From: a virus
Virus record (IMG/VR): IMGVR_UViG_3300010389_003143
Location: 16,059 to 80,058 of that record
Direction: 5' to 3' (one strand)
Length of the DNA: 64,000 nucleotides
Shown here: piece after piece, positions 42,680 through 48,771 of the stretch
Numbering within the stretch: the first letter of the stretch is position 1
How the letters are laid out: every line of letters starts with the position of its first letter
Notes under the pieces: model-generated
Told to the model about the DNA's origin: nothing
The model's input: only the letters and a program-made list of their open reading frames with translations
The model's database searches: none
Made by a program: the position numbers and the translations under genes

Positions 42680-42897
42680 AGTTGCTTATCCTCTAAGCTC
42701 TTAGGGTTTAATGAGTTTTTGTCGCAATAACATTGTCCAACCTGCATAACTGGAGCATAGTTTTTGCATAGCCTAGCGCACTGCTCGTACTTATTGGACT
42801 TCAAGGCCATTCCGAAGCAATAAAGCGTTATGCATATTAAGGCAAAAGTACTCCAGTTTAAAGAAGTCCATCTTTCAATTCGGTGAAATATGCTCAT
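42664..42897 (-). CDS. Small membrane/Cys-containing protein
   Basis: TM helix then C...C...CYC; starts inside the 17-bp junction motif. Confidence 0.5.
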   Translation of the reverse strand: MSIFHRIERWTSLNWSTFALICITLYCFGMALKSNKYEQCARLCKNYAPVMQVGQCYCDKNSLNPKSLEDKQLWPKD

Positions 42898-43286
42898 GGC
42901 GCCACCTCCCGCCCTTCGGCGTCGAGTAGGACGAGGGTGCAGCTACACAGGTCAGCCAGTGCAGGCCCGACCCATTTTGCGATCTCGTGTCTAGGCCAAC
43001 TACGGTCGCTCAGGGCAGGGTAGTCCACCCACCACTGTGGGGTCGTTGTCGCCGCCGCAGTCGCACGATCCAGCCCCTCCGCCACCGGCTTCCCATCCCA
43101 CGCGAGGACGAGGGCATCGTGCTCCTCGATGCCCGCCGCTTTGCATCCTGCACGCCACCACGAGTTGCCTTTGCCGTCGTGGTCTAACCAAGCTGTCGGA
43201 GGACGGGCACCGCACGGCCCCTCCTTCAGCAGCCCGTGAGGGTCGCCCTTCTCGGGCACTAGCAAGACGGCGTGTACTTTACTCAT
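42894..43286 (-). CDS. Hypothetical protein (GC-rich cassette)
   Basis: GGAGG RBS; ATGA overlaps at both ends. Confidence 0.6.
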   Translation of the reverse strand: MSKVHAVLLVPEKGDPHGLLKEGPCGARPPTAWLDHDGKGNSWWRAGCKAAGIEEHDALVLAWDGKPVAEGLDRATAAATTTPQWWVDYPALSDRSWPRHEIAKWVGPALADLCSCTLVLLDAEGREVAP

Positions 43287-43555
43287 GGCGCATCCTCCAG
43301 CGCGCGAAGCCTCACCGGACCATCCCAGCGGTCACACCTCTGGCATCCGGTCCTCGCGAGAAACACACCATCAGCGGCCGAGACGATCTCCTGTCGGTCT
43401 GGCCCGCATTGACAGGCGTCACCGACCAGCACCACTACACACACGTCAGCGTGCGAGTTGTATCCATCAGCCCAGCCCCGGCAGTAGTCCTCGGACCCCT
43501 CCCTATAAGCAACGAACCCGGTATTCGTGAAGTGTCCGACTTTGGCTCTGCTCAT
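43283..43555 (-). CDS. Hypothetical protein (GC-rich cassette)
   Basis: GGAGG RBS; ATGA overlaps. Confidence 0.55.
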   Translation of the reverse strand: MSRAKVGHFTNTGFVAYREGSEDYCRGWADGYNSHADVCVVVLVGDACQCGPDRQEIVSAADGVFLARTGCQRCDRWDGPVRLRALEDAP

Positions 43556-43941
43556 GGCGCAGCCTCCAGTGCGGCCACAAGGGCCTCGGCAGTGGGGAGC
43601 CAGCCGTCCGTGATGTTGCCAGCCTCACCGCCAGAGCGGATCACGCGGGCCATGTCGAGGCACAGGTCAATGCGGCACTCGGGGTGTGCCTCCTGCACCA
43701 ACGTGATCAAGCCCAGCCGGGTCAGGTCGTCGGTGAGGTCTGGGACCATCGTAGGGTGAATGGTGTGCGGCACTCGACAAGCACGTACCGCTCCCCATGC
43801 CATAGGTAGGTCTTCTGGTACAAATGCCCGCATCCCCGGCAGCCAGCGAAAATGCCTACAGTTCACCAGCCTTTTCGCAAGGCTCGGCGGTGTTGTCTCG
43901 GTGCCACTCGTCGTGGTGTTTTCTACAGAAGCATCGGACAT
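43552..43941 (-). CDS. Phage protein of the RAVAC..WRWMPGM...PDL.D...EALVAALEAAP type
   Basis: AKRLVNCRHFRWLPGM...PDLTDDLTRLGLITLVQEA...EALVAALEAAP. Confidence 0.6.
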   Translation of the reverse strand: MSDASVENTTTSGTETTPPSLAKRLVNCRHFRWLPGMRAFVPEDLPMAWGAVRACRVPHTIHPTMVPDLTDDLTRLGLITLVQEAHPECRIDLCLDMARVIRSGGEAGNITDGWLPTAEALVAALEAAP

Positions 43942-44365
43942 CTAGCCACCTCTCTGTGTGGTACGAGTCGTGGTGCCACGCGTGCGGGCCGGAACACTCG
44001 CCGCCGTTGCCGCCGCAACACTCCACGTCCTGTGCTCGCGGCAGCCTGCCCGACTGCACGGCGTTGTTGACTGCTGCCTTGCACAGCATGTACCAACGTC
44101 GCTTTTGGTAGTAGGCACGATCTGTGGCTCGGCCTTTCTCACTCGCCCGGTACTTCTTCTTAGCCCTAGCCTGTGCTTCGCGACCCTTACGGCTCTGCCT
44201 GTACCGCTTGTAGGTTGCGGCACGCTCGGGCGATCCCTCTTTTGCTCGGCGGCGCTTCGCTTCGCACTCCTTGCACTTAGAGTAGCGCCCGTGCTTCCCC
44301 ATAGGGTTGCTCCGAAAGGCGTCAAGAGAGAGGTTCCGCTGGCATCCTGTGCATGTTTTGTCCAT
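43856..44365 (-). CDS. Zinc-finger plus HNH-like endonuclease
   Basis: CTGC...F...SKCKEC N-terminal finger; HHDSY...LDVRCFCRKHH...H beta-beta-alpha-Me motif. Confidence 0.65.
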   Translation of the reverse strand: MDKTCTGCQRNLSLDAFRSNPMGKHGRYSKCKECEAKRRRAKEGSPERAATYKRYRQSRKGREAQARAKKKYRASEKGRATDRAYYQKRRWYMLCKAAVNNAVQSGRLPRAQDVECCGGNGGECSGPHAWHHDSYHTERWLDVRCFCRKHHDEWHRDNTAEPCEKAGEL

Positions 44366-44441
44366 ACACCGCCACTAACCAGCTTCGGCATCCACCGCCA
44401 GCCGGGACAGGCGACGGCGCGTTGTGCTAAGTCATTCATCG

Positions 44442-44912
44442 TTAAACCCCGATTCCATCAAGTGTTTTTTGTAGTCTAGCGATCTCTGCCTCTAGGGTCT
44501 TTTTCTTTTTCTCTAAAGATTTCTTTATCTTTGGCTCTTGCGCTTTCTTCCACAAAGAAAAGTTAGCCTCATAGGCTGCAAGCTTTTTAGAATAATCTTG
44601 CATTCTTTTTTCGTAAGTCTTTAATTTCTTTTTATAAGAGGCCATCTCTTGATTATATCTAAGATTTTTGCATGGCACAAGAGCTTTGAACTCCATCGAT
44701 TCATAACGCCATTCATGCTTAATCTCTATATCAGACCAATCTTTTACTACAGGTTTATGATAATCAAATTTTTCGCAATATTCTTTGACAATATCTCCGA
44801 TAGCCGATATCTTAAATATGCCCTCGGGAAAGTCTATTGAAATTTTCTCAATCTTTATTTTTTCCGGAGGAGTCGGCTTTGTCGGCGCTCTTGGTTTCGT
44901 CGGCTTTCTCAT
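44442..44912 (-). CDS. Hypothetical protein with Pro/Lys N-terminus and coiled coil
   Basis: MRKPTKPRAPTKPTPP; C-terminal heptads. Confidence 0.6.
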   Translation of the reverse strand: MRKPTKPRAPTKPTPPEKIKIEKISIDFPEGIFKISAIGDIVKEYCEKFDYHKPVVKDWSDIEIKHEWRYESMEFKALVPCKNLRYNQEMASYKKKLKTYEKRMQDYSKKLAAYEANFSLWKKAQEPKIKKSLEKKKKTLEAEIARLQKTLDGIGV

Positions 44913-45123
44913 TTTGAATCCATTTATTATAAAAGTAAAGTGCGGCTGTAGATACTCCGCTACCCCGATAGGGTGTGCTTGAAATTATAATCAGCCTTTT
45001 ATCGCCTGTCAATAGTTTTCGCTGCTCTTCGGTAATTTCCTCAAAGCCCCTCGACCACTCTTTAAACTCCGGATCATCTGGAGAGTACAAAGGCAGGGGC
45101 AAATCCCACTTAATCCCCCTCAA
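44848..45123 (-). CDS. Small protein containing a terminase-like motif
   Basis: KRLIIISSTPYRGSG...YFYNKW. Confidence 0.45.
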   Translation of the reverse strand: MRGIKWDLPLPLYSPDDPEFKEWSRGFEEITEEQRKLLTGDKRLIIISSTPYRGSGVSTAALYFYNKWIQNEKADETKSADKADSSGKNKD

Positions 45124-45310
45124 CTACTTTCTCCTCTGGAACAATGCCGTAATCACGACTGTAGCGATAGGCAATCATCTTTGCTTTATTCATTTTAAGC
45201 AAAATTTCCAAAATCTCACCAAGACAATCTTCTACATCATCTTTATCTAGGTTATCTGATTCTCTTATTCTATCTATAGACCAGGAGAGCCTTCTCAATT
45301 CACTAATCAT
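45110..45310 (-). CDS. Hypothetical protein
   Basis: Overlapping gene chain on the coding strand. Confidence 0.5.
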   Translation of the reverse strand: MISELRRLSWSIDRIRESDNLDKDDVEDCLGEILEILLKMNKAKMIAYRYSRDYGIVPEEKVVEGD

Positions 45311-45611
45311 CTTTATCCTCCAGTGAGTATAGCCAATAAAAAGCGGTTAACTCTTCTTCGGGCTTTATATCCTTTATTGTTTTGAACATAATAAAGTCGC
45401 CCTGGATATAGGCCTCGCAGTTTGGATCTTCCGAATGATTAAAGAAAGCTCCAAGCGGAGTTCTTATATATCCATTTTCAAATCTATCATCTTTAACGTG
45501 AGCAATACCTAACTCTGTGTCTTTGGCTATGTGACTTTTGGAAAACAAACCATTGCCATCTATATCTGAAAATCCAATATATAAAAATTCTGGAAGAGGT
45601 CTGTAAGTCAT
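45303..45611 (-). CDS. SET-domain protein (putative lysine methyltransferase)
   Basis: GNGLF, FFNHSEDPNC, DIKPEEELTAFY (SET motifs I, III, IV). Confidence 0.85.
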   Translation of the reverse strand: MTYRPLPEFLYIGFSDIDGNGLFSKSHIAKDTELGIAHVKDDRFENGYIRTPLGAFFNHSEDPNCEAYIQGDFIMFKTIKDIKPEEELTAFYWLYSLEDKDD

Positions 45612-46066
45612 TTTGTATCCTTTTTAGATTCTTTTAATAATCTAATGGCTTCTTTTTCTTTTTCAATAAGATTGTAATTTTCAGGATTTAGAGTAATTAA
45701 AGCACATACAATACACTCTTTCATGGGTGCGCCGTGTCCACATAAGTTACATGTACATTCTTGCTCTAAAGGTCCGGAATCATAACCTGCATCACAACGA
45801 GCACAATCGTACCATTTTGAAGTATCTCTTGATAAAGATTTGCTCCAGTAGTTGGGGTCTGGAAAATCTGGATCTCTCAAAATCAAACCAACCGCTTCAC
45901 TTGTTGATCCGCACTCAATCCCAACGATTCTTTTTTGAACCAACTTTCCATCGAATTCTACCCATATTATTTCGTGAATCTTTGGTTCATCGCCCTTCTT
46001 TACAGTTAAAATTCTGCCTCTACCCGGTATGAAAGGGGTAATGTCAGGATTTCTATAGCACCTCAT
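45608..46066 (-). CDS. Protein with EF-Tu domain II-like N-terminus and Cys-rich C-terminus
   Basis: FIPGRGRILTV...RIVGIE...VGLILRD; CARC...CTC..C...C..C. Confidence 0.45.
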   Translation of the reverse strand: MRCYRNPDITPFIPGRGRILTVKKGDEPKIHEIIWVEFDGKLVQKRIVGIECGSTSEAVGLILRDPDFPDPNYWSKSLSRDTSKWYDCARCDAGYDSGPLEQECTCNLCGHGAPMKECIVCALITLNPENYNLIEKEKEAIRLLKESKKDTK

Positions 46067-46488
46067 TCCTCACCCCCGGTCACCACATCAGCGATGTCGA
46101 TGCCACTGTCGTAGATTTCGATGCCCGAAGGCATGGGCAGCGGATCAACCACAACCAGCTTACGGGCGATCTCCGCGTAGTTGACCCTCCGTGAAGCGAG
46201 CAAGCGACCCATCTGCATGAAGCCCCACTGCATCCGAAGGACACGCTTCGCCTTCTTCTTGCGGAGTCGCTTCTTGCCCCGATGCTTCCGCATTTCGTCA
46301 GCGAGGTTCGCCTTGATGTACTCATCGCGGGCCACCTGTCCCGTGATCATCTTGGACGCCTCGACCATCCTCGCGCTGATGCTCGACGTGGCGTAGGTCG
46401 TTGGGCCGCTCATCATCTCCTCACTGACTCCGAGCCCTGTCATGATCTTCTGCCGGAACAGATCCACCTCTGCCTTCGTGTCCATCAC
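46063..46488 (-). CDS. Hypothetical protein with portal-like and capsid-like segments (GC-rich cassette)
   Basis: IMTGLGV...GPTTYATSSI and RRVNYAEIARKLVVVDPLPMPSGIEIYD. Confidence 0.5.
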   Translation of the reverse strand: MMDTKAEVDLFRQKIMTGLGVSEEMMSGPTTYATSSISARMVEASKMITGQVARDEYIKANLADEMRKHRGKKRLRKKKAKRVLRMQWGFMQMGRLLASRRVNYAEIARKLVVVDPLPMPSGIEIYDSGIDIADVVTGGEE

Positions 46489-46793
46489 GGCTTCTCAGTC
46501 TGCCACAGGGCATCCGTCACCGCAGACTGGATCGCCTGCTTCACCGTGGGCGACTCGCGGGTCCACGACGAGATCGCGTGCTTCACGGCGTCACTGATAG
46601 CCGCGTCGAGGTGGCGGCGTACCGACTCCTTGATTCTGTGCTCCAGATGGCCGTTGGTCACGAGGTCCGTGATTTCTGCCTCGACCTGCTTTTGAATATC
46701 GCCCTGACGGGCAACAATAGAGTTGACGACCGAGTGTCGCATCGACTCAACGTCGAGCTGTAGTCGAATCATATGCAGAGGTTGACTGCTCAT
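46485..46793 (-). CDS. Hypothetical helical protein (GC-rich cassette)
   Basis: AAGGAG RBS before MSSQPL at 46793. Confidence 0.55.
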   Translation of the reverse strand: MSSQPLHMIRLQLDVESMRHSVVNSIVARQGDIQKQVEAEITDLVTNGHLEHRIKESVRRHLDAAISDAVKHAISSWTRESPTVKQAIQSAVTDALWQTEKP

Positions 46794-46815
46794 TTTCACT
46801 CCTTTGGAATAAAAG

Positions 46816-47343
46816 CTATATAACAAAATAAAACAATAAAAACAAGATACCAAATGATAGCTGCCAACTTACAGTGTGTATTAAGAGTGCTGTATGGCTA
46901 AAGCCTGAAGCTTCCCAAAACTTCCAGCCATCCGTTGACATTTTTGGTACCCCTCTGTAAAAAGTAGACAGGTTATAAGCTCCGTCAACATAATTATTTA
47001 TTGCCCATGCAGCCAAAAAAGAATTCAAAACTACAGAGCTGGCTAGAAGCGGAGATAAGAACGCTAGGTAGGTAAAGTAAAAAATTAGGGATACAGTATT
47101 GGTCATTACAGGTGCAGCAGAAACAAGGGCTTCTTGCACGCTCGTAAATCTAACAACTTGAACGTATTGGACATAAGCCCAAACCCACCTACCGCTTATC
47201 ATGCCTGGGAATGGCCATATTTTTGTAATTGTAGCTCCAAAATACTGCGCGGTAAGGGCATGTGCCCCTTCGTGTTGCAGATTTTGCGGAATCCACCAAA
47301 AAGCGCAAAACAAAAGCATTAATGGCAAAGAAACTGCGTCCAT
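46816..47343 (-). CDS. M50-like intramembrane metallopeptidase
   Basis: HEGAHAL, SAAP, several TM helices, TDG. Confidence 0.65.
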   Translation of the reverse strand: MDAVSLPLMLLFCAFWWIPQNLQHEGAHALTAQYFGATITKIWPFPGMISGRWVWAYVQYVQVVRFTSVQEALVSAAPVMTNTVSLIFYFTYLAFLSPLLASSVVLNSFLAAWAINNYVDGAYNLSTFYRGVPKMSTDGWKFWEASGFSHTALLIHTVSWQLSFGILFLLFYFVI

Positions 47344-47344
47344 T

Positions 47345-47593
47345 TTATTCCCTCAAAATTTTGGCCTCAAGTATTTCGTATGGCCCCTTTTTATGGTACC
47401 CAATTTGATCATATCCACCAACGTGTATAAAGTCCTCTCCATCTATAAGACCTATAACGGAGCATAAATGACCTTTTGCAATATCTGCGGCATCGTGATT
47501 ATTTGTAGCTATCTCATAGCCAATTATTCTATGCCTTGTCTCAAGCTGAACTTGATATATTGGCATTTTTTCTGGATTATTCCAACTCATCAC
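47345..47593 (-). CDS. Hypothetical protein
   Basis: Packed gene chain. Confidence 0.5.
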   Translation of the reverse strand: MMSWNNPEKMPIYQVQLETRHRIIGYEIATNNHDAADIAKGHLCSVIGLIDGEDFIHVGGYDQIGYHKKGPYEILEAKILRE

Positions 47594-48044
47594 TCATCTC
47601 CTCAACCGCTCTTTGTATTGCGGCTATGAACTCGGGGTCGTCAATCTCCTTGATCTGGGACAACGACTGACAGTGGAACAGACCCGTGTAGATCGCCCCG
47701 CAGTGCTCACAGACCTCCTCTTTTGGCCCCCGACGTGGAAGGTCTGCCAAGGATACCCCGACGTGCTTCTTGCCGGTAGGCTTCCCATCAGGGTCGATGC
47801 ACTTGGGACACGGCGGCAGAGCGGGATGCCCGTGCGCTTTCCCTCCGGTGTAGGTGACACCGGGCACCATCTTGTCGAGGTCAACGAGCTTACCAAAGCA
47901 GTTGTCGCACTCATCGACTACACCGGTTGGCATGAGAACAGTGTTGCCGTCCTCCGTCTTGCGAACCCTCTCGGGGTTGTCGATGCCAATGCCGACGATC
48001 TCGGTAGCAGACCACTGGATGCGGGGCTTGTCTTTCTCACTCAT
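47577..48044 (-). CDS. Multi-zinc-finger hypothetical protein (GC-rich cassette)
   Basis: CDNC, CPKC, CEHC..HC; GGAGG RBS. Confidence 0.55.
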   Translation of the reverse strand: MSEKDKPRIQWSATEIVGIGIDNPERVRKTEDGNTVLMPTGVVDECDNCFGKLVDLDKMVPGVTYTGGKAHGHPALPPCPKCIDPDGKPTGKKHVGVSLADLPRRGPKEEVCEHCGAIYTGLFHCQSLSQIKEIDDPEFIAAIQRAVEEMSDELE

Positions 48045-48249
48045 CGGCCACCTCCTCCAAGTCCTCCCTACTGAACCAGTGGTACGGGAACGCCAGCTTC
48101 ACCATCCCGGCATAAGGCCCCCAAGGCGGACCCTCCTGCACGATGGGTTGTGGGCGACGGGTGGCCTCTTGGAGAGAGGGCGGAGAGTCCCAGATGACTT
48201 GCTTGACGAGATACCGCTTCTCGCTTGGCTTGGTTTTGATCTCACCCAT
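48037..48249 (-). CDS. Hypothetical protein (GC-rich cassette)
   Basis: GGAGG RBS; overlapping chain. Confidence 0.5.
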   Translation of the reverse strand: MGEIKTKPSEKRYLVKQVIWDSPPSLQEATRRPQPIVQEGPPWGPYAGMVKLAFPYHWFSREDLEEVADE

Positions 48250-48574
48250 CAGCCTTTCCTCCGATGCTGCGATAAGACGGGAAGGTCGGCGGCCACACCG
48301 GAGCGTCGGGATCCCACTGGCGCAGGAAGGTGTCGATGTTGGGCCAGTGCCGAACCCAAGCGTACTTGTCCTCGCCTCGGATCAACCCTGCGAGGGCACG
48401 GCAGGACTCGCCCGGATTTCCCGCGTCCACAGTGACGAGAATTGCCACCCCCGGCTTGGTGTTGTAGGCCATGTTGGAGCCGACGTTGACCTCGACAACC
48501 GGTGGACGGACATCGAGGGGGTCGGACACATCAAGCACCAAGAACAGGCTCATTTCAGTCGGGTGTTTTGCCAT
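48242..48574 (-). CDS. Hypothetical protein (GC-rich cassette)
   Basis: AAGGAG RBS; TGATG overlap. Confidence 0.55.
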   Translation of the reverse strand: MAKHPTEMSLFLVLDVSDPLDVRPPVVEVNVGSNMAYNTKPGVAILVTVDAGNPGESCRALAGLIRGEDKYAWVRHWPNIDTFLRQWDPDAPVWPPTFPSYRSIGGKADG

Positions 48575-48771
48575 CAGATGTGCTCCTTTTTTGGGTCCGA
48601 AGCAAAAGCGTGCGGATCCCCATCTAGCGAGAATTCTTCTATGATTTTGTCCAAAGAGTTATTCAAAGCATCTGCGATAGGAGTCACCCTAGTCTTATCG
48701 AGGAACTTCAATCGATATTTTATTTCATCGATAGCCCGAATCGCTTCAGAATCATTTGTTATAAATTCCAT
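48574..48771 (-). CDS. Hypothetical protein
   Basis: Packed gene chain. Confidence 0.5.
   Translation of the reverse strand: MEFITNDSEAIRAIDEIKYRLKFLDKTRVTPIADALNNSLDKIIEEFSLDGDPHAFASDPKKEHI

What the first reader, a model, noticed from the sequence alone, without database searches (positions are those of the whole stretch)
44848..46488. Cluster of small ORFs resembling fragments of immune-trigger proteins (terminase, portal, capsid, EF-Tu): possible decoy module
Seen within 1.6 kb: (i) KRLIIISSTP.RGSG...FYNKW, like the large-terminase ATPase coupling motif; (ii) an EF-Tu domain II-like segment; (iii) one ORF joining a portal-like and a major-capsid-like segment; a SET gene lies between them. 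Established: Avs/STAND sensors detect terminase and portal, CapRel detects capsid, and Lit cleaves EF-Tu when bound by a capsid peptide. Inference: these are mimics that titrate host sensors or poison the assembly of competing phages. The similarities are judged by eye and need confirming.
Basis: inference. Interest (0 to 1): 0.72.

Follow-up and report, generated by a model that had tools for sequence, protein, structure and literature searches.

The report
Phage mini-gene fusing portal and capsid fragments
One of the small genes in this jumbo-phage island really is a conserved, mobile mini-protein stitched from the most conserved piece of a phage portal protein and the N-terminal arm of a major capsid protein, while the supposed terminase-like and EF-Tu-like neighbours do not hold up, so there is one intriguing self-mimic gene and no shown decoy module.

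Summary
The window is part of an 80-kb fragment of an uncultured jumbo phage, estimated at about 330 kb. Six tightly packed minus-strand ORFs exist at the stated coordinates, and all are under purifying selection (dN/dS 0.07-0.45).

- **SET gene:** confirmed by Pfam.
- **ORF6 (46063-46488), portal plus capsid chimera:** confirmed with statistics. Residues 2-42 match the most conserved stretch of the portal of an abundant jumbo-phage group (hhalign E 2.4e-6). Residues 52-139 match the N-terminal arm of that group's HK97-type major capsid protein (E 1.3e-8). An invariant polybasic helix, GKKRLRKKKA, interrupts the capsid part and is conserved at protein level only.
- **ORF6 family and mobility:** the family has 87 clusters, nearly all small proteins, and its modules shuffle. 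ORF6 and ORF7 form a 732-bp GC-rich cassette, 86% identical in DNA to GC-rich jumbo phages, dropped into an AT-rich genome.
- **Terminase-like ORF2:** sub-threshold (Pfam E 0.03 in relatives only).
- **EF-Tu-like ORF5:** a generic beta-barrel.

The result is one real self-mimic gene, not a decoy module. Its function is untested. I favour competition for head-assembly partners over sensor blocking. The scan noted this same stretch before, on this same DNA.

The parts
46063..46488 (-). ORF6: 141 aa from GTG 46488, or 140 aa from ATG 46485, which overlaps the ORF7 stop as TGATG. It is a portal-MCP chimeric mini-protein, GC 0.59, pI 9.8.
46363..46485 (-). Portal-derived module of ORF6 (residues 2-42). 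It corresponds to portal residues about 385-438 of 573, the densest run of invariant portal columns.
   Evidence: hhalign E 2.4e-6. The profile hits the portal in 4 of 5 large relatives, and these ORFs are phrog_16240 portals. Invariant columns are listed. The ESM Atlas nearest named clusters all belong to portal families.
46072..46335 (-). MCP-derived module of ORF6 (residues 52-139). It corresponds to the N-terminal arm and the first strand toward the E-loop of an HK97-type MCP.
   Evidence: hhalign E 1.3e-8 against the G004 MCP and E 1.9e-7 against the G001 MCP. The profile hits the MCP in 7 of 7 genomes that hold one. PDB 6wkk_A matches at E 5.7e-4.
46237..46290 (-). Polybasic helix RKHRGKKRLRKKKAKRVL, inserted within the MCP-derived module. 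GKKRLRKKKA is the invariant core of the family.
   Evidence: Invariant columns. Synonymous codon variation across 9 loci. AF2 helix 73-99 at pLDDT about 87-92. The segment is absent from the MCPs.
46485..46793 (-). ORF7 (102 aa, GC 0.59). It is the cassette partner of ORF6 and its function is unknown.
   Evidence: It is adjacent to the ORF6 homologue in L003 and L004. Weak phrog_2600 hit, E 9.8e-5.
46062..46793 (.). GC-rich two-gene cassette (ORF7 plus ORF6). Its ends coincide with the gene borders.
   Evidence: blastn gives 86% identity over 744 nt to L003 and 80% to L004. The GC profile reads 0.59-0.61 against 0.29-0.44 in the flanks.
45608..46066 (-). ORF5 (152 aa). It has an N-terminal small beta-barrel, a 22-aa Cys motif (WYDCARCDAGYDSGPLEQECTC) and a C-terminal helical part. 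It is a fusion of two modules that also occur alone.
45303..45611 (-). Minimal SET-domain protein (102 aa).
   Evidence: PF00856 E 3.7e-10, 40.6 bits against a cut-off of 22.4. phrog_28741 E 5.5e-20. dN/dS 0.07.
45110..45310 (-). ORF3 (66 aa, acidic). No family match.
44848..45123 (-). ORF2 (91 aa). Its terminase-motif resemblance is sub-threshold.
44984..45012 (-). Perfect sigma-70-type promoter consensus (TTGACA, 17 nt, TATAAT) inside ORF2, upstream of ORF1. The TATAAT encodes the 'III' of the supposed terminase motif.
   Evidence: It is conserved as TTGACG/TATAAA in L005.
44442..44912 (-). ORF1 (156 aa, basic, coiled-coil-like). It is the last gene of the AT-rich block shared with L005.

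Best explanation
Shown:
- The stretch lies in a hyperplastic small-gene island of an uncultured jumbo phage.
- It has two parts with separate histories. ORF1-ORF5 is an AT-rich block shared with a close relative. ORF7-ORF6 is a 732-bp GC-rich cassette exchanged with GC-rich jumbo phages.
- ORF6 is a selected, mobile accessory mini-gene. Its protein joins about 40 residues of the most conserved portal stretch to about 70 residues of the capsid-protein N-terminal arm. An invariant polybasic helix is inserted in the capsid part.
- The parental portal (phrog_16240) and MCP (phrog_2522) belong to a very abundant environmental jumbo-phage group that includes the contig carrying the nearest cassette.

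Inferred:
- The protein cannot fold like either parent, so it most likely works as a structural mimic. It would compete for whatever normally binds these two motifs during procapsid assembly.
- My favoured partner is the strongly acidic scaffold or procapsid core, which the polybasic helix would suit.
- The outcome would be either interference with head assembly of co-infecting related phages, or loading of the mini-protein into capsids.
- ORF2, ORF3, SET and ORF5 are ordinary island genes, not fragments of trigger proteins.
For: Fragment homology:
- Searches support the portal and capsid matches, and the shuffle control is.

Functional constraint:
- dN/dS is 0.27-0.45.
- Eighty-seven clusters at 50% identity match the profile, all 39-210 aa except one repetitive protein.
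- GKKRLRKKKA is invariant with many synonymous codon changes.

Accessory and mobile character:
- The gene is absent from G005-G008, including a complete 312-kb genome.
- The cassette borders fall at gene borders, with 86% nt identity to a genome of GC 0.56.
- An estuary contig joins 45611 to 46491, without ORF5 and ORF6.

Module shuffling:
- The portal module occurs with other C-termini (P0040, P0108, P0115).
- The MCP module occurs with other N-termini.

Partner idea:
- The putative scaffold of G001 lies between the prohead protease and the MCP. It has pI 4.4, with 99 acidic against 51 basic residues, while ORF6 has pI 9.8.
- The portal wing is reported as a scaffold-interaction site in P22 (PMC13386823). 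From my own knowledge, the coat N-arm binds scaffold in P22.

Resident versus foreign capsid type:
- In G001 the mimic is nearer to the other MCP type (score 107, 24/64 identical) than to the resident MCP (score 55, 13/41).
Against: - No binding, expression timing or phenotype was shown.
- The window's own contig holds no head genes, so it is unknown whether this phage uses the parental portal and MCP types.
- The preference for a non-resident MCP type rests on one or two genomes and may only reflect where the family arose.
- The identity of the scaffold protein rests on gene position and composition alone.
- The AF2 model is only moderately confident (mean pLDDT 63) outside the central helix.
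Confidence: 0.38

Rival explanations
1. Immune decoy or sensor blocker. The mini-protein displays the conserved portal and capsid motifs that host short-motif sensors recognise. It binds those sensors without activating them, or saturates them early.
For: - It carries exactly the most conserved stretches of both parents (invariant columns), which are the kind of epitope a sensor would target.
- It is an accessory gene in a hypervariable island and moves horizontally, which is typical of conflict genes.
- Lit and CapRel are described as detecting MCP through short sequence motifs (bioRxiv 10.64898/2026.01.04.697583).
Against: - Avs-type sensors wrap the whole HK97 or portal fold (same paper), which a 40-70-residue fragment cannot offer.
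- A free trigger peptide would be expected to activate rather than block a Lit-like system.
- A recent review of phage countermeasures (PMC13728456) gave no precedent for a capsid- or portal-derived decoy.
- The invariant polybasic helix has no obvious role in this model.
- The host and its defence systems are unknown.
Confidence: 0.2
2. Exapted nucleic-acid-binding or regulatory small protein. The polybasic helix is the working part, binding DNA or RNA, and the head-gene pieces merely supplied coding material.
For: - GKKRLRKKKA is the only fully invariant segment, and it is the confidently helical core.
- Many family members lack the portal module and vary in the far C-terminus.
- The gene sits among early or replication-type genes in L003 and L004.
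Against: The MCP-derived flank (RR.NY.EIGRK.F.VEPLP...IY) is nearly as conserved as the basic core across the family. That would be unexpected if it were only filler.
Confidence: 0.17
3. Functionless recombination debris that hitch-hikes on a mobile cassette.
For: - The island is full of module shuffling. One example is the 22-aa Cys motif shared by unrelated proteins.
- HNH endonuclease genes lie nearby.
- Cassettes come and go.
Against: - dN/dS is well below 1 over dS up to 0.9.
- The family is broad, with identity down to about 40% over the full length.
- The motif is invariant at protein level despite synonymous change.
- No frameshifts or stops were seen in any copy examined.
Confidence: 0.1
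4. The whole 1.6 kb is a coordinated decoy module with terminase, EF-Tu, portal and capsid mimics.
For: - Terminase_6N is the only named family touched by ORF2 relatives.
- EF-Tu chains show the highest sequence identity (18-28%) among the weak fold hits of ORF5.
- ORF6 lies upstream of ORF5 in the relative L005 too.
Against: - All terminase and EF-Tu signals are below significance, and neither ORF rises above shuffled controls.
- The conserved LLTGDK.LII of ORF2 overlaps a perfect promoter.
- ORF6 and ORF1-5 have different origins and different divergence from L005 (52% against 63-90% protein identity).
Confidence: 0.03

Closest known systems
Portal proteins of the phrog_16240 / Pfam Portal_T4 (PF07230) kind
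   Same: ORF6 residues 2-42 are homologous to the most conserved portal stretch (...YAGLGVTE.LLSGESSYAGDRI...).
   Different: ORF6 has about 40 of about 560 residues. It has no clip, stem, wing or crown domains, so it cannot form a portal ring subunit.
HK97-fold major capsid proteins of the phrog_2522 kind (phage G gp27, PDB 6wkk)
   Same: ORF6 residues 52-139 are homologous to the N-terminal arm and first strand (RR.DY..VGRK.F.VE.LP.GALPIYD.D.DV).
   Different: ORF6 has no P- or A-domain, it ends where the E-loop would begin, and it carries an 18-residue polybasic insertion that MCPs lack.
Satellite-encoded capsid-redirecting or packaging-interfering proteins (for example SaPI and PICI capsid-morphogenesis proteins, PLE TcaP)
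   Same: These are small accessory proteins that act on another element's head assembly. Some are homologues of head proteins.
   Different: Those are encoded by satellites and have shown activities. ORF6 is encoded by jumbo phages themselves, is built from two different head proteins, and has no shown activity.
T4 Gol peptide / Lit and the CapRel capsid triggers
   Same: A short conserved N-terminal capsid segment is the biologically active unit. The ORF6 capsid part is the positional counterpart (inference from HK97-fold topology, not tested).
   Different: Gol is part of the capsid protein itself and triggers defence. ORF6 is a separate gene, and no relation to Lit or EF-Tu was found.
T4 internal head proteins with a capsid-targeting sequence
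   Same: These are small accessory basic proteins that reach the procapsid through affinity for the scaffold core.
   Different: No sequence relation exists, and ORF6 has not been shown to be in virions.

Membership tests
Phage portal protein (Portal_T4 PF07230 / phrog_16240) | Significant profile match to the family | tested here: met
   For a 40-50-residue segment only. P0036 scores 26.2 bits against a cut-off of 22.9. The family against the portal alignment gives E 2.4e-6. ORF6 itself reaches only E 0.033 against phrog_16240.
Phage portal protein (Portal_T4 PF07230 / phrog_16240) | Full-length subunit of about 500-600 aa with all portal domains | tested here: not met
   ORF6 is 141 aa. The match covers profile positions 284-339 of 433 and portal residues 385-438 of 573.
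HK97-fold major capsid protein (phrog_2522) | Significant profile match to the family | tested here: met
   For the N-terminal arm only: E 1.3e-8, E 1.9e-7 and PDB 6wkk_A E 5.7e-4.
HK97-fold major capsid protein (phrog_2522) | Complete fold with P- and A-domains | tested here: not met
   The match ends at MCP residue about 76-116 of 290-336. The AF2 model is helical with a disordered tail.
Large terminase, T4 type (Terminase_6N PF03237) | Profile match above the curated cut-off, including the ATPase motifs | tested here: not met
   ORF2 has no hit. Relatives score 13-14.5 bits against a cut-off of 22 over profile positions 118-162 of 215. There is no collinear match to the group's TerL.
EF-Tu domain II (translation-protein beta-barrel) | Sequence profile match | tested here: not met
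   ORF5 has no Pfam or PHROG hit.
EF-Tu domain II (translation-protein beta-barrel) | Specific structural match of the barrel | tested here: inconclusive
   Foldseek finds EF-Tu chains at E 0.04-0.2. VIA-align gives EF-Tu domain 2 Z 4.9 at rank 48, below many unrelated barrels at Z 5-7.2. Model pLDDT is 70-83 for residues 1-65 only.
SET-domain methyltransferase (PF00856) | Pfam match above the gathering score | tested here: met
   40.6 bits against 22.4, E 3.7e-10, although only profile positions 62-104 of 105 align. phrog_28741 covers the full length at E 5.5e-20.
Anti-defence decoy / sensor inhibitor | Binds a host immune sensor and prevents its activation | not testable with these tools
Assembly-interfering or capsid-targeted mimic | Binds scaffold, portal or MCP | not testable with these tools
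   No informative computational result was obtained here. Pull-downs or co-assembly assays are needed.

The most novel reading that the evidence does not exclude
ORF6-type proteins are a new class of mobile 'self-epitope' mimics. Jumbo phages carry a trans-acting mini-protein that presents the two most conserved head-protein motifs, from portal and capsid N-arm, on a polybasic helix. They use it either to sabotage procapsid nucleation of co-infecting rival jumbo phages or to blind host sensors that read short capsid or portal motifs. The gene hops between phage lineages of very different GC content as a two-gene cassette.
Probability: 0.3. Interest if true: 0.85.

Novelty: new variant of a known kind. 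Interest (0 to 1): 0.62.

Why it matters
Phage proteins that mimic other molecules are known, and so are satellites that tamper with capsid assembly. I found no description of a conserved phage gene assembled from fragments of the phage group's own portal and capsid proteins.

If it acts on assembly, it would be a phage-against-phage weapon in a very abundant environmental jumbo-phage group. That group's capsid protein has at least 590 IMG/VR loci.

If it acts on host sensors, it would be the first decoy built from the trigger itself.

Either way it gives a short, defined peptide pair to test in binding and infection assays. It also shows gene-sized cassettes moving between phages whose genomes differ by about 20 points of GC.

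Tried and rejected
- **Cultured-phage search.** tblastn of ORF2, ORF5 and ORF6, and blastn of the region, against 50,697 phage records found nothing useful.
- **Pfam Portal_T4 in G000-G004.** No hit. These are fragments, and the group's portal is too divergent for that model.
- **Group portal against PDB by sequence.** No hit, so the portal fragment could not be mapped onto a solved structure.
- **Complex prediction.** Complex prediction of the G001 MCP with the G001 ORF6 homologue returned no verdict (score 0.00 against a mark of 0.32). This is evidence neither way.
- **ORF2 against the group's TerL.** Only a non-collinear 13-residue match, P 0.06.
- **ORF5 against MCP.** P 0.65.
- **ORF10 N-terminus against the MCP C-terminus.** Pairwise E 6e-4 with the G004 MCP, but E 0.25 with the G001 MCP. 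There was no signal in the G008 scan, and the match was found post hoc among many comparisons, so I do not accept it.
- **ORF7 as a head-protein fragment.** No signal above shuffles.
- **Sequencing runs.** The runs hold only 5-25% of the sampled words of the stretch. The RNA-library contigs over ORF1, SET, ORF5, ORF7 and the ORF6 3' end do not prove transcription. Parts without cover say nothing.
- **Habitat.** The run labels (estuary, salt marsh, sediment, marine) are leads only.
Full report
**Setting.** The window is bases 16059-80058 of an 80-kb IMG/VR viral contig that CheckV rates 24% complete, which implies a jumbo phage of roughly 330 kb. Nearly all genes run on the minus strand. Large neighbours include ribonucleotide reductase, helicases, topoisomerase I, a PrkA-like gene and a tubulin-like fusion. 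The finding covers six overlapping or abutting minus-strand ORFs:
- ORF1, 44442-44912
- ORF2, 44848-45123
- ORF3, 45110-45310
- a SET gene, 45303-45611
- ORF5, 45608-46066
- ORF6, 46063-46488

**A GC mosaic.** GC content switches sharply at gene borders. It is about 0.29-0.45 over ORF1-ORF5 and 0.59-0.61 over ORF6 and the next gene, ORF7 (46485-46793). It is low again over 46800-47580 and high again over 47600-48580 and 42900-44440. blastn explains this.
- Bases 44449-46077 are 82.5% identical to a syntenic AT-rich relative (L005, contig G003).
- Bases 46062-46793, which are exactly ORF7 plus ORF6, are 86% and 80% identical to two contigs of uniform GC 0.56-0.58 (L003 and L004, contigs G001 and G002). 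There the pair sits among replication-type genes.
- Bases 48242-48575 are 95.8% identical to L004.

ORF6 therefore arrived on a 732-bp two-gene cassette from GC-rich jumbo phages, and ORF1-ORF5 have a separate history. L005 also has an ORF6 allele upstream of ORF5. That allele is only 52% identical in protein, against 63-90% for ORF1-ORF5, and extra GC-rich genes lie in between.

**ORF6 is a real, selected gene.** The word-indexed search found 42 homologues down to about 43% identity over the full length. The exhaustive profile search found 87 clusters at 50% identity. All are 39-210 aa except one repetitive protein. Pairwise dN/dS is 0.27-0.45 at dS 0.27-0.94. The segment G(K/R)KRLRKKKA is invariant in protein, while its codons differ freely among nine loci.

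**The capsid half.**
- The family profile hits PDB 6wkk_A, the phage G gp27 major capsid protein, at residues 30-71 with E 5.7e-4.
- Scanning related contigs in six frames, the same profile hits a 290-336-aa ORF in G001 and G004 (E 1.4e-6 and 1.7e-8) and in five further large contigs (E about 1e-6).
- These ORFs are phrog_2522 major head proteins (E 1e-50 and 2e-73).
- hhalign gives probability 93.7, E 1.9e-7, for ORF6 95-141 against MCP 31-76 of G001.
- hhalign gives probability 95.6, E 1.3e-8, 41% identity, for ORF6 52-139 against MCP 49-116 of G004. That alignment shows the polybasic stretch as an insertion peculiar to the ORF6 family.
- The matched MCP stretch is rich in invariant columns between the two MCP types: 20 of the 38 columns at residues 38-75 of the G001 MCP.

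**The portal half.**
- ORF6 alone only grazes phrog_16240, a portal family (E 0.033).
- Relative P0036 passes Pfam Portal_T4 (26.2 bits, cut-off 22.9, profile positions 284-339).
- In four of five large relatives, the only hit of profile positions 3-44 is a 560-653-aa ORF (E 2-3e-3 per genome). Three of these ORFs were scanned and all three are phrog_16240 portals.
- The family profile against an alignment of four such portals gives probability 88.9, E 2.4e-6, ORF6 2-42 against portal 385-438 of 573.
- That is the densest run of invariant portal columns, with 14 of the 55 invariant columns lying in residues 399-434.
- The ESM Atlas features independently place ORF6 nearest to small proteins of portal families, at a borderline score of 0.90.

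**Control for chance.** ORF6 was compared by BLASTP with all 134 ORFs of at least 250 aa in a complete 312-kb relative (G008). It ranks the portal first (E 4e-6) and the MCP second (E 0.068). The real best score is 38.5 bits, against a maximum of 26.6 in 20 shuffles. None of ORF2, ORF5, ORF7 or ORF10 exceeds its shuffles.

**Modules and distribution.**
- The portal module occurs with unrelated C-termini (P0040, P0108, P0115).
- The MCP-like core occurs with unrelated N-termini (L006, L007, L009, L011 and many representatives).
- G005-G008 have the portal and MCP but no ORF6-type gene, so the gene is accessory.
- An estuary metagenome contig joins 45611 to 46491, leaving out ORF5 and ORF6. Loose ends fall at the same gene borders.
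- The parental MCP is remarkably common and conserved, with at least 590 IMG/VR loci at 85-100% identity in genomes from GC 0.38 to 0.56.
- The window's own contig has no head genes. It shares a lineage-specific large protein with G001 (62% identity) but little with G008. Whether this phage uses the parental head proteins is therefore open.

**The other claims.**
- *SET.* This is a solid SET domain.
- *ORF2.* It has seven close homologues and no family hit. Two relatives touch Terminase_6N at 13-14.5 bits, below the cut-off of 22. One Atlas cluster carries that family in 11% of its members. There is no collinear similarity to the group's TerL. Its conserved LLTGDK.LII stretch coincides with a perfect TTGACA-17-TATAAT promoter upstream of ORF1, which is kept in L005.
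- *ORF5.* It is a fusion of two modules that also stand alone (P0047 and P0045), joined at a 22-residue Cys motif that recurs at the ends of unrelated proteins. Its N-terminal 70 residues model as a small beta-barrel. The best structural matches are phage tail-hub, MreC, PilZ and ASCH barrels at Z 5-7.2. EF-Tu domain 2 scores Z 4.9, and EF-Tu chains reach Foldseek E 0.04-0.2. This is a generic fold, not a specific EF-Tu mimic.

**Mechanism.** The AF2 model of ORF6 is helical, with a confident central helix (residues 54-99, pLDDT 79-92) and a disordered tail. That fits a protein that needs partners.

The two parental segments are the most conserved parts of the portal and of the capsid protein's N-terminal region. 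In well-studied phages, the coat N-arm (my knowledge of P22) and the portal wing (PMC13386823) are where scaffold acts. The G001 gene in the scaffold position is extremely acidic (pI 4.4), and ORF6 is basic (pI 9.8).

I therefore favour a mimic that competes for head-assembly partners (confidence about 0.4). It would be used either against co-infecting relatives or to enter capsids. In G001 the mimic resembles the other MCP type more than the resident one, which fits a rival-directed role but rests on very few genomes.

The sensor-decoy reading remains possible (about 0.2), but only for short-motif sensors, since Avs proteins wrap whole folds. A review of countermeasures gave no precedent for a decoy built from capsid or portal. 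A nucleic-acid-binding role for the basic helix (about 0.17) and neutral debris (about 0.1) are the other rivals.

**Verdict.** It is a new variant of phage mimicry, its function is unproven, and it merits bench tests.

Noticed in passing
window 45749-45814 (ORF5 residues 85-106): A 22-residue Cys motif, WYDCARCDAGYDSGPLEQECTC, is 84-100% identical in otherwise unrelated proteins. It sits at their N-terminus, C-terminus or middle (P0045-P0054), which points to a small shuffling module or recombination joint.
   Followed up: partly
window 44984-45012, minus strand: A 12-of-12 match to the sigma-70 promoter consensus with a 17-nt spacer lies inside ORF2, about 70 nt upstream of the ORF1 start. 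It is conserved in L005.
   Followed up: partly
window 42888-42915, 43277-43304, 43546-43573: Three copies of a 28-nt junction repeat (RBS, stop and start: ...GGAGG..GCGCCATGAG on the coding strand) lie between consecutive GC-rich genes. This may be a cassette joint.
   Followed up: no
window 48242-48575: The GC-rich gene ORF11 is 95.8% identical in DNA to a gene of the GC-rich contig L004. This looks like a very recent cassette transfer.
   Followed up: partly
window 47577-48044 (ORF10): The N-terminus (QWSATEIVGIGIDNPERV) resembles the C-terminal strand of the G004 MCP (GWVVNEIIGVGIVNPRGV), pairwise E 6e-4. The match is not significant after multiple testing and is absent against G008.
   Followed up: yes
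window 43856-44365: An HNH endonuclease gene (phrog_2340, E 4e-23) is embedded among overlapping GC-rich ORFs.
   Followed up: no
window 45611/46491 (run X1): An estuary metagenome contig joins these two gene borders, skipping ORF5 and ORF6 (879 nt). Other contigs diverge exactly at 45611, 46063, 46102 and 46491. This indicates cassette-level polymorphism in nature.
   Followed up: partly
L019:7275-8147 and loci L022-L101: The 290-aa MCP of this jumbo-phage group is 85-100% identical across at least 590 IMG/VR loci, in genomes whose GC ranges from about 0.38 (G008) to 0.56 (G001).
   Followed up: partly
L019:8302-10296 (G001): A 664-aa ORF directly downstream of the MCP shows LAGLIDADG-like motifs by eye (LGDGYM, FMDDGG). 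It may be a homing endonuclease next to the capsid gene, but this was not checked with a profile.
   Followed up: no
L019:5284-6420 (G001): A 378-aa, pI 4.4 protein with long D/E runs and repeated ESKKKAS motifs lies between the prohead-protease-like gene and the MCP. It is a probable scaffold and has no PHROG match.
   Followed up: partly
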